Origin: the human T2T-CHM13v2.0 reference genome, Homo sapiens
NCBI RefSeq assembly: GCF_009914755.1
Contig: NC_060925.1
DNA: 64,000 bases
Reading direction: 5' to 3' (one strand)
Below are positions 10 to 9,170 of this stretch, piece by piece. Positions within the stretch are counted from its first letter, which is position 1. Each line of letters opens with the position of its first letter. The notes under the pieces are model-generated. The model did not search any database. It was not told the origin of the DNA and saw only the letters and a list, made by a program, of their open reading frames with translations. Made by a program: the position numbers and the translations under genes.

Positions 10-129
10 CACTTTGATGCTCCAAATGGCACTGCCAGGAAGCTGCCTGGGTTTAAAAATTTCCCGACCTCCTGAAATGTCTGGGGACCAGGAAGGTGGG
101 CTCACTGTATTATGGGTACTCCAAGCCTC
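10..129 (-). pseudogene. KMT2C: Duplicated (unprocessed) KMT2C/MLL3 coding exon (exon 15 by my recollection), part of a KMT2C partial paralog continuing left of the window
   Basis: The minus strand reads ...cctag|GAG GCT TGG...ATC AAA GTG|gtaaat: 120 nt, phase 0, AG at 130-131 and GT at 8-9. It translates to EAWSTHNTVSPPSWSPDISGGREIFKPRQLPGSAIWSIKV, matching recalled KMT2C GAWSTHNTVSPPSWSPDISEGREIFKPRQLPGSAIWSIKV with 2 substitutions. The large upstream KMT2C exon is absent from the window, which points to a partial paralog. Confidence 0.92.
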
Positions 130-1499
130 CTAGGATATGGCAGTTGAGAAAATAGATGTGTAAAACTCAGCAACATAAAAGGTCAAAGCCAGCAACTAAG
201 GAATTTTAGAACAGCAAAAACAAATGCAAACATATGGAAATTTAGGACAAATTGCTTCAAGGAAGGCAAAATAAGCTAATCACTAACAGTGATTTAAACA
301 TTTAAGTATAACAAATAACTTAAATGTTTGCTGCTACAGAGACATCACTACAATGAAACATTAAAAATTAAGGTTTATATGACATCAACATTGACTCATG
401 AACTGCAATTACTGCACCAAAAAGTAAATAAAAGTCAATCACACTTTAAGAATTAACACTAGAAGAAAGTATTGGGGGGTTATTTTTCTTCTAACAACTA
501 TCACTCTACTTAAAAGGAGAAATGGATAACCATAAGGAATTCTATATTCTATAGCTATAAACAACCAAAACCAGTAGGCCAAAGAATGCAATGAGAAACA
601 TAAGCAATAGATAAATGCATAAACTTTACACTGTAGAGAGCTGGTAACATTAAAATGCAAATACCATTATAATCTTAGCATTTAATCACTCTTTCTTCAG
701 TGACCATTAGTTGCCGGTTTGGTTTCGGTTTTTACTCAGGGAAATGAATACTTTATGGAAATTACATCCAATGGACAAAAGTGAAGAAACGTTAAAGCAA
801 ATTGTCCTAAATTTGCAAATTAAAATGCCTAAAGTACCTGATAAATTATATAGAAAGTAGTATCTTATTAAAATCTATATAACTAAAACTAAAGCATTTT
901 ACTTCCAAACAACCACATTCAGCAATACCCTGAACTAATCTGAAGATGCTAAACAGCATAAAGAAAAATGTTTACTCCACAAAGATAACATTTTAAAGAA
1001 AAACAAGACAAATGTCAAACAATACAAGGATATATTTTGAATTAGGTAATTCAATGGTGCATGCATAATTTTACCAATCAAGTAACCAAAACTTAAGACA
1101 AGGTACATAGTACTTACCAGGTTTCTAGAATATCATCAAATTAACAAGTACTATCTCATTAATCACATAAAAATACCACCAGGAATTAAAATAACCAGAA
1201 ATAAGAATGTGACTACTCTTGGGGTAAGAGATAGGTAACGGAATAACGGTATTTTGGAAAAGCCACACAAGCAATAGACTGGTTTCATTTTTAAGTCACA
1301 AACTCAACCCACACACATTGAAGTCCAGCAATTCAACTCATTCTCTCCAGCAAACACTTTATTTTTTTCCCCCTCCAGGATTACCCTCAGGTGTTCTTTC
1401 TTACCCATCAAATCTCTAACCTAGCTCAGGTAATCACTATGCTGATTTCACTGAGCAGCAACCACTGCAGGTCAATTACCTCACTTTCATAATTTCAAA

Positions 1500-2470
1500 T
1501 CAACTTGAATCTGTACCTATGTCTTCTTCCCTACTATTAGTAGGGAAGTGTTGTCAAAAGCCGTTTCTCTTTTCTCATTTTACTCATGCTCCTAACATCT
1601 GGCATACTGTTCTGCTGGATTTGGCAGCAGCCCACCTGTGGATAATTCACTGACTTCCTCGCTAATCTTTCTTCATCTCCTGTACGTGTTCTTCCTCTAT
1701 TTGACTTCCAAAGCCCTGGAGTTTCCCAGGGCTTGAGCCTAGATCCTAAATGGTGTTATCTACAATGAGGGCATCTTGCAAGTTGATGCTTCCCACATTC
1801 TTATTTCTAGTTTTAATCAAAGATCTCCAAATTAGCAGGATTTTCAACTTCCTCCTTAGCATTTCCATTTTCTCACATAAAACCCCTCTTAATTTTGCCA
1901 TGGTTAAAATTTCTCCCTTAACCGGTTTCATCCCAGTCTTCCCCATCCTTATAAATGGCATCCAGTCCCTTGTCACTCTCCTCTGCTCCTTCAGTCCTCT
2001 CCCCCAACACCTCGTCAATGCAAATCATCAGCAAATTCAAGACTTTTTATCTTCAAGTTTTGTCTCCGATCCTTCTGCTTCTTGTCACTTCCACCACTAG
2101 CAGCCCACTCGTGGCCACCACCATCTCTCACCTAACCTGCTACAAGAGTCTACTGCTGGTTATGCTTCTCCCACCCTGCATCTACTCAAGCCTTTCCCCA
2201 CAGCAGCCAGAGGAACTTTTCAAAAGTACAAATGTGATCAAGCAAGTCACTATTCTATTTCAAATCTTCAATTGCTTCTCAGAGCACTTAAAAGACAAAC
2301 CTTTCCCAGTGCCTTTCTCCAGCTCATCTTGTGGCACTTGTCTCCCTGCTGCTATGCTCCAGCTATTCTGGCTTCCTTGCTGTCCTTCAAACATGCCAAG
2401 CTCTTTATCAATCAGAGCCCAACTGACTCAGAACACTTCACTATACCATTCCAGCCCTTCAATAAATGTC
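1500..2470 (+). mobile_element. LINE-2 (L2a-like) 3' fragment
   Basis: Typical L2 motifs (ccacagcagccagaggaacttttcaaaagtacaaatgtgatca; ttcaataaatg at the end). The ORFs here are incidental. Confidence 0.7.
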
Positions 2471-2476
2471 TGGCAT

Positions 2477-7664: not shown

Positions 7665-8085
7665 TGGTATTAATTAAAAATCAACCAGAGGTAGGGAAAA
7701 ATAAAACTTATTCAAAAATACTATTGCAATAGGGAGAATATTCCAAACTCAATCTACAGGTGTCTCAGGATCAAACAGGAAAAGGCTTTCCTTTTCTAGG
7801 GAAGGACAAGCAGGGCTGGCAGAAGCCTCCTTGGAGAGAAGAACAGGCAGTGGGGTGAGCAGGTGGCAAAACCAGGATGCTCCAATAAAAATAGTTTCTC
7901 TGGGAGTCCCGCTCATTTTTGGAGTGAGCTGTTAGCGGGCTGGTCTGTCCTTTAGTGCTTGTTCAGTCTTAGGTGGTGAGCCAAGGTCCAGGGGCCTGAG
8001 GAGAGGAGACAAGACTGTCTGAAGTTTGATAAAATCAAGTCAATGGGTAGTTATGAGTAATTGTGAGCAATTGGTCAGCTTTGGG
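7665..8085. mobile_element. Probable ERV LTR remnant (MER67-like)
   Basis: aaacttattcaaaaatactattgcaatagggaga and a more GC-balanced composition, typical of MER4-group LTRs. Not confirmed. Confidence 0.35.
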
Positions 8086-8340
8086 CTCAGCACACACCCC
8101 ACCTTATGTTGTTTACCACAAACAAAACTTGTCCCTAAAAATTTTTAGGAATGGCATCAGATATAGCGAAGGTTTGCAAACTGATTTTCAGGGTTGGGCT
8201 GGTCTTCATGTGTTTGTTAACCTTGAGGACTAGGTATATCATTTGTTAAGTGTGTTATTGGACTGACAGCTGCTCTCTATGAAAAGTAGAATAATCATTG
8301 AATATAATAAAAAGAATAATTATTGAAGGTTGGATAAAGA

Positions 8341-9170
8341 GGTCCGCGGAGCGATGGGCGAGTACGCGGGTGCCACACGCTCCTCGCCTTCTGCTGCCTG
8401 CAACTGGTGGCAGCGCTGGAGCAGCAGATCTTTGACTTCCAGGGCGCCTACCAGTGAGCTCCCACCCTAGCCAATTTCCTGCGCCTCGTGGTGCTCACCC
8501 TGGGCATCGTGGGCACCGCAGTGTGGCTGACGCTCCGGGCTGGCCTGAGTGCGTTTATCACCTGCTTCTACCCGAAGGCTGGACCCAATATCCCCAGACC
8601 GCGACTTCCCCACAGCGTCCAAATGCCCCTGTACCGATCCAGGGATGGAGAATCGCCGGGCAGCGGGCGACTCCGGTTCTGAGCTTCCCCTGGCCATGGG
8701 GCGCTGCCGTGCAGTCTTGTCCCTGGCTGCCTGCTGCACTGTCCCTGCAAAGAAGCCCTCAGCAGCGCCCGCAGATCCTCCTGGTGCTGCTCCGCTTCCT
8801 GTTCGCCAGCTATGGGAGCAAAGTCTTCCTGAAGGAGGAGGCAGCTTTGACTTCATCAGCGGCTTCCACTCCTAGGGATGCCAGGCGCCCCAGAAGACGT
8901 CACGTTGACACCAGCAGCCTCTATGCGCTTCGGGTAGCCCTGCCCCGCCTGCCCTGGCCCTGTGCCCTTGGCGCTGGACTGACCTCGGCAGCCGCGATCT
9001 TGGTCAGGACCAGCAGGCACAGCCCTGGGGGCTCGGGACCCACTGCAGCCTGTGAAGGCCCCATGGCTCTGCACACAGAGAGGCGGAGCAGCAGACTTTG
9101 GGACTTGGCCCCTCACAACCAGGACTTCAGAGAGGATTGGGGCGGGTAAGGGAGGGGCCACGGAGTCCGC
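8341..9170. promoter_or_regulatory. CpG island over the NKAIN1 retrocopy
   Basis: Abrupt switch from AT-rich, CpG-poor DNA to GC-rich DNA with dozens of CpGs. A GC box (gggcgg) lies at ~9140. Confidence 0.7.
8499..8856 (-). CDS. Candidate first coding exon of a chimeric gene (antisense of NKAIN1 retrocopy joined to KMT2C); unspliced ORF is 8467-8856, 129 aa
   Basis: True ATGs at 8856 and 8697 (MARGSS...). The frame is open up to the donor CAGG|GTGAGC (GT at 8498-8497), and phase 1 matches the internal KMT2C acceptor at 81-82. Expression cannot be shown from sequence. Confidence 0.4.

What the first reader, a model, noticed from the sequence alone, without database searches (positions are those of the whole stretch)
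10..8856. Candidate chimeric gene: antisense strand of an NKAIN1 retrocopy spliced in frame into a KMT2C exon through a cryptic acceptor
Seen in sequence: on the minus strand an ATG-initiated ORF (8856, or 8697 'MARGSS...') runs without a stop to ...GAT GCC CAG G|GTGAGC (GT at 8498-8497, phase 1), inside a CpG island. About 8.4 kb downstream on the same strand is the orphaned KMT2C exon. Its native acceptor (130-131, phase 0) would give a frameshift (GGLEYP-stop). The exon also holds an internal acceptor-like site, ccttcctggtccccAG| (81-82). Joining 8499 to 80 gives ...GAHDAQ-DISGGREIFKPRQLPGSAIWSIKV exactly in the KMT2C frame (1+71 nt = 24 codons), ending at the intact donor (8-9). Established: the next KMT2C exons encode an RG-rich segment and then PHD fingers, and BAGE genes are a precedent for new genes built on pericentromeric KMT2C fragments. 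Inference: a duplicated chromatin-regulator fragment that lost its own 5' end gained a new promoter and a de novo N-terminus (66 or 119 aa) from the wrong strand of a retrocopy, and could encode a SET-less PHD protein. The phase match alone has a 1-in-3 chance probability, and gene predictors may already model this junction.
Basis: partly seen in the sequence, partly recalled or inferred. Interest (0 to 1): 0.85.

Follow-up and report, generated by a model that had tools for sequence, protein, structure and literature searches.

The report
Pseudogene mosaic, not a shown chimeric gene

Summary
Every coordinate in the finding checks out: both minus-strand ATGs, the open frame to the GT at 8498-8497, the 120-nt KMT2C-derived exon (129..10), its native and internal AGs, and the frame arithmetic. 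The plus strand of 8354-9054 is an old NKAIN1 processed pseudogene, 74% identical to the parent. The KMT2C piece is a 29.6-kb duplicon that starts in an intron at about 2769.

The gene model has no support here.
- RefSeq's minus-strand transcript from the retrocopy is a two-exon lncRNA that uses another donor and ends at 6878.
- KMT2CP1, KMT2CP4 and KMT2CP5 all start about 2.5 kb downstream of this exon.
- The antisense ORF is no longer than composition predicts: 618 of 2000 shuffles reach 119 aa. It has no Pfam family and no named relative.
- The frame match is at chance level, and a second donor-acceptor pair is also in frame.
- The KMT2C frame ends at a nonsense codon in the sixth exon. That stop is shared by all 8 duplicated copies found, and pN/pS is 0.7-0.96.

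RNA junction reads could not be consulted. This is ordinary, already annotated pericentromeric material.

The parts
1..2769 (-). Proximal end of the KMT2C-derived segmental duplication. The whole duplicon is chr1:143379181-143408769, colinear with chr7:153384776-153414369. Here it holds intron sequence plus one exon.
   Evidence: one 29,768-column blastn alignment at 95.9% identity; the chr7 match ends at window 2769.
10..129 (-). KMT2C-derived exon (my 'exon A'), 120 nt, phase 0/0, open in the KMT2C frame. It is the first KMT2C exon in the duplicon and is not part of any RefSeq transcript.
   Evidence: 2 differences from chr7 within the exon, both non-synonymous. for the annotation.
130..131 (-). 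Native acceptor AG of the exon.
   Evidence: Matrix score 3.23, about the 5th-6th percentile of training acceptors, but within the range of the other KMT2C acceptors (2.2-11.6).
81..82 (-). Internal AG proposed as a cryptic acceptor. The same 23-mer is present in the parent gene on chr7.
   Evidence: Matrix score 11.14 (74th percentile), rank 2 of 579 AGs. Other AGs lie at 128, 120, 106 and 102 between the native and the internal AG.
8..9 (-). Donor GT of the KMT2C-derived exon.
   Evidence: Matrix score 6.91 (43rd percentile), identical in chr7.
2469..2867 (.). Alu-type masked repeat that spans the duplicon junction.
   Evidence: masked stretches 2469-2674 and 2679-2867; many dispersed roughly 300-nt matches at 86-88%, and the chr7 homology ends inside it.
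6878..7995 (-). Terminal exon of the RefSeq lncRNA LOC105371215 (NR_160535.1). Polyadenylation hexamers lie at 6907 and 6899.
   Evidence: Annotation supplied with the finding. The acceptor scores 12.78, rank 1 of 579. Hexamers.
8635..8871 (-). First exon of the lncRNA LOC105371215. Its start at 8871 lies inside the retrocopy, and its donor after 8635 is phase 0 from both ATGs.
   Evidence: Annotation. The donor scores 0.88, the 1st percentile. The annotated transcript carries an 82-aa ORF.
8467..8856 (-). Antisense ATG ORF, 129 aa when unspliced and 119 aa up to the proposed donor. It is rich in A, S, G, R and P.
   Evidence: No Pfam family, no named protein, Atlas recognition 1345, below the 2300 that 91 in 100 proteins of known families reach.
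8497..8498 (-).
   Evidence: Matrix score 8.29 (69th percentile), the best GT in 8400-8871.
8354..9054 (+). NKAIN1 processed pseudogene (aligned part). It is not named in RefSeq for this copy. The paralogous NKAIN1P1 annotation corresponds to about 8243-9779.
   Evidence: 749 columns, 74% identity, 58 gap positions, crossing all six exon junctions; the parent gene matches exon by exon. for NKAIN1P1 and NKAIN1P2.

Best explanation
Window 1-9100 is a junction between two pericentromeric duplicons, and the junction has been copied as a block.

One duplicon is a 29.6-kb genomic copy of an internal part of KMT2C, carrying the exons for an RG-rich stretch and PHD fingers. RefSeq annotates it as the transcribed pseudogene KMT2CP1. 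The other duplicon carries an old, decayed NKAIN1 processed pseudogene. The GC- and CpG-rich remnant of that pseudogene's coding sequence acts as a start site for a short minus-strand lncRNA, LOC105371215.

The antisense ORF is a by-product of GC-rich sequence. The in-frame junction to the KMT2C exon is a coincidence of phases. The KMT2C reading frame was already dead (nonsense codon, weakened donor) before the block spread to chromosomes 1, 2, 13 and 21.

Shown: the identity and limits of both duplicons, the copy number, the shared disabling changes, and the chance level of the ORF. Inferred: that no appreciable chimeric mRNA or protein is made.
For: Identity and copy number:
- KMT2C colinearity is 95.9% over 29.8 kb and ends at 2769 in an Alu.
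- The retrocopy aligns across all NKAIN1 exon junctions at 74% identity, with frameshifts and a stop.
- The exon region (window 1-400) has 15 places in the genome: this one, 13 paralogs and chr7. The retrocopy has 7 copies.
- The retrocopy-plus-exon block therefore has 7 copies. Over the 431-nt ORF stretch the five other chr1 and chr2 copies are 99.3-99.5% identical to this one and the chr13 copy 97.9%.

Annotation:
- The lncRNA runs 8871-8635 and 7995-6878.
- KMT2CP1, KMT2CP5 and KMT2CP4 begin 2518, 2519 and 2535 nt downstream of the exon.
- No transcript joins the two parts in any copy.

Coding tests:
- ORF length is at chance level, with no family or relative.
- The first stop in exon F is present in 8 of 8 duplicated copies and absent in chr7. 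A second stop is in 6 of 8 and a third in 2 of 8.
- The exon E donor reads GTT in 8 of 8 copies against GTA in chr7. Its score falls from 3.83 to -0.08, and RefSeq's NR_136328.1 skips that exon.
- pN/pS against chr7 is 0.70 (12 non-synonymous, 5 synonymous differences) up to the stop, and 0.96 over exons A-H.
Against:
- The donor RefSeq annotates for the lncRNA is very weak (1st percentile), so unannotated isoforms using 8499 are plausible.
- Four to five KMT2C-derived exons after the junction remain open and would give two complete PHD fingers in a 350-aa conceptual ORF.
- RefSeq annotation in near-identical duplications is conservative, and reads that map to several copies are often discarded.
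- I could not look at RNA-seq, CAGE, Ribo-seq or proteomics.
- The pN/pS counts are small.
Confidence: 0.85

Rival explanations
1. Transcripts start in the retrocopy's antisense strand, splice from 8499 to the internal acceptor at 80, run on through the KMT2C-derived exons, and are translated into a protein with a new N-terminus and PHD fingers but no SET domain.
For: The junction is in frame and both sites score well. A real start site exists at 8871 (annotation). The conceptual ORF is 350 aa, with Pfam PHD matches in exon D (32.8 bits) and exon E (49.2 bits).
Against: - No annotated transcript supports it in any of the 7 copies.
- The annotated transcript from this promoter is spliced to the best acceptor (7995) and polyadenylated at 6878. 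Twenty-four polyadenylation hexamers lie on the way to the exon.
- The parent gene carries the same internal 23-mer and, as I recall its protein, uses the native AG. An AG 20 nt upstream of the internal AG leaves little room for a branch point (inference from the AG-exclusion rule).
- Exon E has a crippled donor and is skipped in NR_136328.1. That cuts the ORF to 267 aa with an incomplete first PHD finger.
- The stop in exon F lies upstream of several exon junctions, so nonsense-mediated decay is expected (established rule).
- That stop predates the duplications, and pN/pS is near 1.
- The N-terminal ORF is at chance level and has no relatives.
Confidence: 0.04
2. Occasional non-coding read-through. 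A minority of LOC105371215 transcripts skip the 7995 exon or its polyadenylation site and splice into the KMT2C-derived exon and on into KMT2CP1. This would give chimeric lncRNA isoforms that are not translated or are degraded.
For: The two genes lie on the same strand, 9.5 kb apart. The splice motifs are good. KMT2CP1 is itself already a chimeric transcript that ends in the DRD5P2 duplicon and includes an Alu exon. The pair 8635 + 129 is also in frame, so frame carries no information.
Against: There is no annotation for such isoforms. A strong acceptor and polyadenylation signal lie between the two. KMT2CP1, KMT2CP4 and KMT2CP5 share their own start site in the intron.
Confidence: 0.12
3. The annotated lncRNA encodes a small protein of its own, the 82-aa ORF from the ATG at 8856, independent of KMT2C.
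For: The ORF starts 16 nt from the annotated start and is the first ATG.
Against: The ATG has a weak context, with C at -3 and A at +4. The length is at chance level. There is no family or named relative. The chr13 copy has a 1-nt deletion in the frame.
Confidence: 0.03

Closest known systems
KMT2C (MLL3) juxtacentromeric duplicons: KMT2CP1-5 pseudogenes and BAGE loci
   Same: This is a genomic copy, with introns, of the same internal KMT2C segment. It lies next to a centromere, occurs in many copies on chr1, 2, 13, 14, 15, 21 and 22, sits beside unrelated duplicons, and is partly transcribed. The chr21 copy lies inside BAGE2 and the chr13:13.75 Mb copy inside BAGE5. The literature describes BAGE as made by juxtacentromeric reshuffling of KMT2C/MLL3, and describes truncated BAGE loci as non-functional (passages read).
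   Different: BAGE proteins are described as small and without known domains (passage in PMC3084872). They are not PHD proteins read in the KMT2C frame. This copy has no BAGE annotation, and its upstream neighbour is the duplicon that carries the NKAIN1 retrocopy.
NKAIN1P1 / NKAIN1P2 (NKAIN1 processed pseudogenes)
   Same: It is the same retrocopy: 99-100% identical over 801 nt to the sequences annotated as NKAIN1P1 (chr1:142.56 Mb) and NKAIN1P2 (chr2:91.91 Mb).
   Different: The copy in this window, and four others, carry no NKAIN1P name in the RefSeq table I was given.
Antisense lncRNAs started from the CpG-rich bodies of retrocopies
   Same: A minus-strand start lies inside the GC-rich pseudogene remnant, and the transcript is a spliced two-exon lncRNA (annotation). 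The paralogous retrocopy on chr1:143.75 Mb carries an annotated H3K4me1 hESC enhancer.
   Different: The general class is recalled from my own knowledge.
Chimeric genes born from segmental duplication junctions (for example the BAGE, TPTE and POTE neighbourhoods)
   Same: The juxtaposition could in principle lend a promoter to a truncated gene fragment.
   Different: Here no joining transcript is annotated, the recipient frame carries an old nonsense codon, and there is no sign of constraint.

Membership tests
Processed pseudogene (retrocopy) of NKAIN1 | Contiguous alignment to the spliced mRNA across the parent's exon junctions, with no introns | tested here: met
   one alignment of mRNA positions 1-739, crossing the junctions at 54, 192, 273, 471, 532 and 614; the parent gene matches in separate exon pieces.
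Processed pseudogene (retrocopy) of NKAIN1 | Disabling changes on the sense strand | tested here: met
   58 gap positions, including a 33-nt deletion and several 1-2 nt indels, plus a TGG-to-TGA change; 74% identity.
Processed pseudogene (retrocopy) of NKAIN1 | Poly(A) tail and target-site duplication | not tested
   I supplied only 157 nt of the parent's 3' UTR, so the 3' end of the retrocopy was not located.
Duplicated (unprocessed) KMT2C pseudogene / BAGE-type duplicon | Colinear with parent exons and introns | tested here: met
   29.8 kb at 95.9% identity; nine exons mapped one to one.
Duplicated (unprocessed) KMT2C pseudogene / BAGE-type duplicon | Reading frame disabled relative to the parent | tested here: met
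   two in-frame stops in exon F; exon E donor changed from GTA to GTT.
Duplicated (unprocessed) KMT2C pseudogene / BAGE-type duplicon | Truncated at the 5' end and lacking the SET domain | tested here: met
   homology covers only chr7:153384776-153414369 of a gene that spans 153307815-153608900.
Chimeric protein-coding gene | A transcript that joins the two parts | not testable with these tools
   No RNA reads were available. RefSeq shows none in the 7 copies.
Chimeric protein-coding gene | An ORF longer than chance, or with protein-like features in the new part | tested here: not met
   618 of 2000 shuffles reach 119 aa; no relative, no family, low recognition.
Chimeric protein-coding gene | Purifying selection on the retained frame | tested here: not met
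   pN/pS 0.70-0.96, on small counts; a nonsense codon shared by all 8 copies.
CpG island (Gardiner-Garden and Frommer criteria, recalled: over 200 nt, GC above 0.5, observed/expected above 0.6) | GC content and CpG observed/expected ratio | tested here: inconclusive
   GC 0.65 and observed/expected 0.58 over 711 nt. Two 200-nt bins reach 0.60-0.61.
PHD finger (Pfam PF00628) in the downstream exons | Profile match above the curated cut-off | tested here: met
   exon E scores 49.2 bits and exon D 32.8 bits (cut-off 24); the best solved relatives are KMT2D and KMT2C-homologue PHD constructs.

The most novel reading that the evidence does not exclude
In a tissue where pericentromeric DNA is demethylated (testis, early embryo, tumours), the retrocopy's antisense promoter reads through into the KMT2C-derived exons. 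Using either in-frame pair (8499 to 80, or 8635 to 129), it would yield a hominid-specific protein of about 320-350 aa. That protein would have a disordered new N-terminus and two KMT2C PHD fingers, would be encoded by up to six near-identical loci, and could act as a histone-tail reader or a decoy for KMT2C.
Probability: 0.04. Interest if true: 0.55.

Novelty: already known. Interest (0 to 1): 0.14.

Why it matters
If the chimera were real, it would be a second route, besides BAGE, by which pericentromeric reshuffling of KMT2C made a new gene. It would also be the first such gene to keep chromatin-reading domains. As the evidence stands, the locus is useful mainly as a caution. In GC-rich retrocopies and duplicated exons, long ORFs, good-looking splice motifs and matching phases arise easily. 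Near-identical copies make both annotation and read mapping unreliable.

Tried and rejected
- I looked for relatives of the 119-aa antisense ORF among named proteins. One candidate shared words with it and none scored; 47 sample-only candidates were left out by the tool. The search sees only proteins of about 65-208 aa, so a blank says nothing about a roughly 350-aa model.
- Pfam gave 0 families for the ORF, and the Atlas hits scored 0.86 at recognition 1345, which is not meaningful.
- I could not search with the whole conceptual chimera, because joined sequences may not be typed into tools. Whether a gene predictor has already modelled this junction in a longer protein therefore remains unchecked.
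- Literature: no paper holds LOC105371215. KMT2CP1, KMT2CP3, KMT2CP5 and NKAIN1P1 appear only in lists (one passage read). Searches on KMT2C, pseudogene, BAGE2 and chimeric transcript, and on 2p11, 7q36 and duplicon, gave nothing specific (listings only).
- Ruault et al. 2003 (PubMed 12676563) is not held. I know it only from citations and the passages.
Isoform tables there could bear on the junction.
- MaxEntScan and SpliceAI were not available. I built a position weight matrix from 115 donors and 145 acceptors. These were the distinct canonical sites among 139 and 146 RefSeq sites in sixteen 2.5-kb stretches of chr1. The stretches are exon-dense and GC-rich, so the matrix under-scores AT-rich acceptors: genuine KMT2C acceptors score 2.2-11.6.
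- I considered that more KMT2C exons might lie upstream of the retrocopy, because the KMT2CP3 annotation spans its NKAIN1P1. I rejected this: chr7 homology stops at 2769.
- Conservation of the ORF among paralogs is uninformative, because five of the six other copies are 99.3-99.5% identical.
- Rfam found nothing in the window.

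
Full report
**Observation.** On the minus strand there are ATGs at 8856 and 8697. The frame stays open to base 8499, which is followed by GT at 8498-8497 in a strong consensus context. Without splicing the ORF ends at 8467, giving 129 aa. The exon at 129..10 is 120 nt, with AG at 131-130, a second AG at 82-81 behind a C-rich tract, and GT at 9-8. It is open in one frame. Joining 8499 to 80 continues the KMT2C frame, while joining 8499 to 129 stops after six codons.

**What the two pieces are.** The joined coding sequence of NKAIN1 (seven exons taken from the chr1 annotation, 624 nt) aligns in one piece to the plus strand of 8354-9054. The alignment is 74% identical with 58 gap positions and crosses all six exon junctions. 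In the genome search, the parent gene matches the same stretch only exon by exon.

The left end of the window belongs to a 29.6-kb duplicon, chr1:143379181-143408769. It is colinear with chr7:153384776-153414369 inside KMT2C at 95.9% identity. The homology stops at window 2769 inside an Alu. The retrocopy lies in a different duplicon that abuts it.

**Copy number.** Window 1-400 has 15 places in T2T-CHM13: itself, 13 paralogs on chr1, 2, 13, 14, 15, 21 and 22, and the parent on chr7. The retrocopy has 7 copies: three on chr1, three on chr2 and one on chr13. The same 7 loci carry the whole retrocopy-to-exon block. Over the 431-nt ORF stretch the five other chr1 and chr2 copies are 99.3-99.5% identical to this one. 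The chr13 copy is 97.9% identical there and has a 1-nt deletion in the ORF. Preservation of the ORF and of the sites among such young copies says nothing about selection.

**Transcripts.** RefSeq has a minus-strand lncRNA, LOC105371215 (NR_160535.1), with its start at 8871 inside the retrocopy. An antisense promoter is therefore real. The transcript uses the donor after 8635, splices to 7995 and ends at 6878, just past two polyadenylation hexamers (annotation). It never reaches the KMT2C duplicon.

KMT2CP1 (NR_136328.1) starts at chr1:143403492, which is 2518 nt downstream of the exon and within what is an intron in KMT2C. KMT2CP5 and KMT2CP4 start at the equivalent points, 2519 and 2535 nt downstream. 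In none of the 7 copies does the annotation I was given join the two parts.

**Is the ORF more than chance?** No. In 2000 dinucleotide-preserving shuffles of 8350-9060, the longest ATG ORF on either strand averages 106 aa. Of the 2000 shuffles, 618 reach 119 aa and 424 reach 131 aa. The peptide is rich in A, S, G, R and P and matches no Pfam family. It has no named relative of comparable length, and its Atlas recognition value (1345) is well below the 2300 that most proteins of known families reach. The 'CpG island' is borderline, with GC 0.65 and observed/expected 0.58.

**Is the frame match more than chance?** No. The RefSeq donor after 8635 is phase 0 from both ATGs, and the native acceptor is phase 0. 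That pair is therefore in frame as well, giving a 321-aa conceptual ORF. With two acceptors that accept different phases, two of the three possible donor phases find an in-frame partner.

**Splice motifs.** A position weight matrix built here from 115 donors and 145 acceptors of RefSeq mRNAs on chr1 gives these scores:

| Site | Score | Percentile of true sites |
|---|---|---|
| RefSeq lncRNA donor (last exon base 8635) | 0.88 | 1st |
| Internal acceptor (first exon base 80) | 11.14 | 74th |
| Native acceptor (first exon base 129) | 3.23 | about 5th-6th |
| lncRNA acceptor (first exon base 7995) | 12.78 | 91st |

Among the 579 AGs between 8498 and 10, the lncRNA acceptor ranks first and the internal AG second.

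Three points limit it. First, the matrix was trained on GC-rich genes, and genuine KMT2C acceptors score from 2.2 to 11.6 with it, so the low score of the native site is not unusual for this gene. Second, the same internal 23-mer is present in the parent gene, whose protein, as I recall it, includes the residues encoded upstream of that AG. Third, an AG lies only 20 nt upstream of the internal AG. Under the AG-exclusion rule this leaves an unusually short space for a branch point (inference).

**Downstream exons.** Left of the window, the next KMT2C-derived exons are open:
- exon B, the RG-rich stretch (chr1:143403126-143403242);
- exon C (143397489-143397590);
- exon D (143397192-143397296);
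- exon E (143391734-143391915).

Exons D and E match the Pfam PHD profile at 32.8 and 49.2 bits, and the best solved relatives are KMT2D and KMT2C-type PHD constructs. Exon F (143391314-143391478) has two in-frame stops.

Exon E's donor has changed from GTA to GTT. Its score falls from 3.83 to -0.08, below every training donor, and NR_136328.1 skips this exon. With exon E skipped, the ORF would be 267 aa and would lack a complete finger. In either case the stop lies several exon junctions upstream of the 3' end, so nonsense-mediated decay is expected (established rule, inference here).

**Age of the damage.** Exon F has 9 places in the genome: this copy, 7 paralogs and chr7. The first stop and the GTT donor are present in 8 of 8 duplicated copies, including chr13 and the copy inside BAGE2 on chr21, and are absent from chr7. 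The second stop is in 6 of 8 copies and a third is in 2 of 8. The KMT2C frame was therefore broken before the family spread. Against chr7, the exons up to the stop show 12 non-synonymous and 5 synonymous differences (pN/pS 0.70). Over exons A-H the counts are 17 and 5 (0.96). This is compatible with neutral drift, though the counts are small.

**Literature.** No paper in the library mentions LOC105371215, and the KMT2CP and NKAIN1P names occur only in lists (passage). From passages only, I read the following:
- MLL3 is duplicated through the juxtacentromeric reshuffling that made BAGE (PMC4041455; PMC11838408).
- BAGE loci comprise full-length genes and non-functional truncated ones (PMC3757347).
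- BAGE proteins are small and have no known domain (PMC3084872).

The original 2003 paper is not held. The precedent is real, but it is a precedent for new exons and promoters on KMT2C duplicons, not for PHD proteins.

**Verdict.** The region is an annotated, multi-copy pericentromeric mosaic made of the KMT2CP1 duplicon, an NKAIN1 processed pseudogene and an antisense lncRNA. The chimeric coding gene is a legitimate hypothesis built on correct letters. Every test I could run puts its individual supports at chance level or against it, except the motif scores. The decisive data, RNA junction reads, were not available. I rate the coding chimera at about 4% and rare non-coding read-through at about 12%.

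Noticed in passing
window 8243-9779 (aligned part 8354-9054, + strand): T2T-CHM13 holds 7 copies of this NKAIN1 retrocopy, but the gene table names only two, NKAIN1P1 and NKAIN1P2. The copy in this window has no name.
   Followed up: partly
window 8632-8640 compared with 8494-8502 and 8557-8565 (minus strand): The RefSeq lncRNA donor after 8635 is very weak (score 0.88, 1st percentile). Two much better GTs lie 73 and 136 nt downstream in the same exon zone, scoring 7.87 and 8.29. This is unexplained; unannotated isoforms may exist.
   Followed up: partly
window 8896-8902 (minus strand): A TGACGTC motif, 7 of the 8 bases of the cAMP-response-element palindrome (consensus recalled), lies 25-31 nt upstream of the lncRNA start at 8871 (read). 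It falls in the part of the retrocopy that matches the end of the NKAIN1 coding sequence.
   Followed up: no
L001-L003 (chr1:143377449-143403492, left of the window): The KMT2CP1 transcript NR_136328.1 is itself a patchwork. Its first exon is intronic in KMT2C. One exon (143390956-143391082) reads like an exonised Alu. Exon E is skipped. The last exon lies inside the DRD5P2 gene span.
   Followed up: partly
L002, exon H (chr1:143389305-143389357) to exon I: Joining the chr7 equivalents of exons H and I as annotated for the pseudogene transcript puts exon I out of frame. The pseudogene transcript therefore probably uses a donor different from the parent's coding donor there.
   Followed up: no
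window 2770-21000: There are further duplicon boundaries. Window 6432-7620 matches seven places on chr9, chr15 and chr20 at 89-90%. Window 9942-14027 matches chr13, 14, 15, 22 and contig C24 at 96-97%. A sharp change of partners occurs at about 14027.
   Followed up: no
chr1:143752142-143752750 (inverted paralog of window ~8270-8880): RefSeq lists an 'H3K4me1 hESC enhancer' element exactly over the paralogous retrocopy. A 'NANOG hESC enhancer' lies in a KMT2CP1 intron at chr1:143394070-143394571.
   Followed up: no
L040, L041 (chr2:90.19 Mb and chr2:89.55 Mb): These two copies share a third nonsense codon in exon F and an extra amino-acid change in exon E, which marks them as a sub-lineage.
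   Followed up: no
window 1-64000: No Rfam family reaches its gathering score anywhere in the window.
   Followed up: yes
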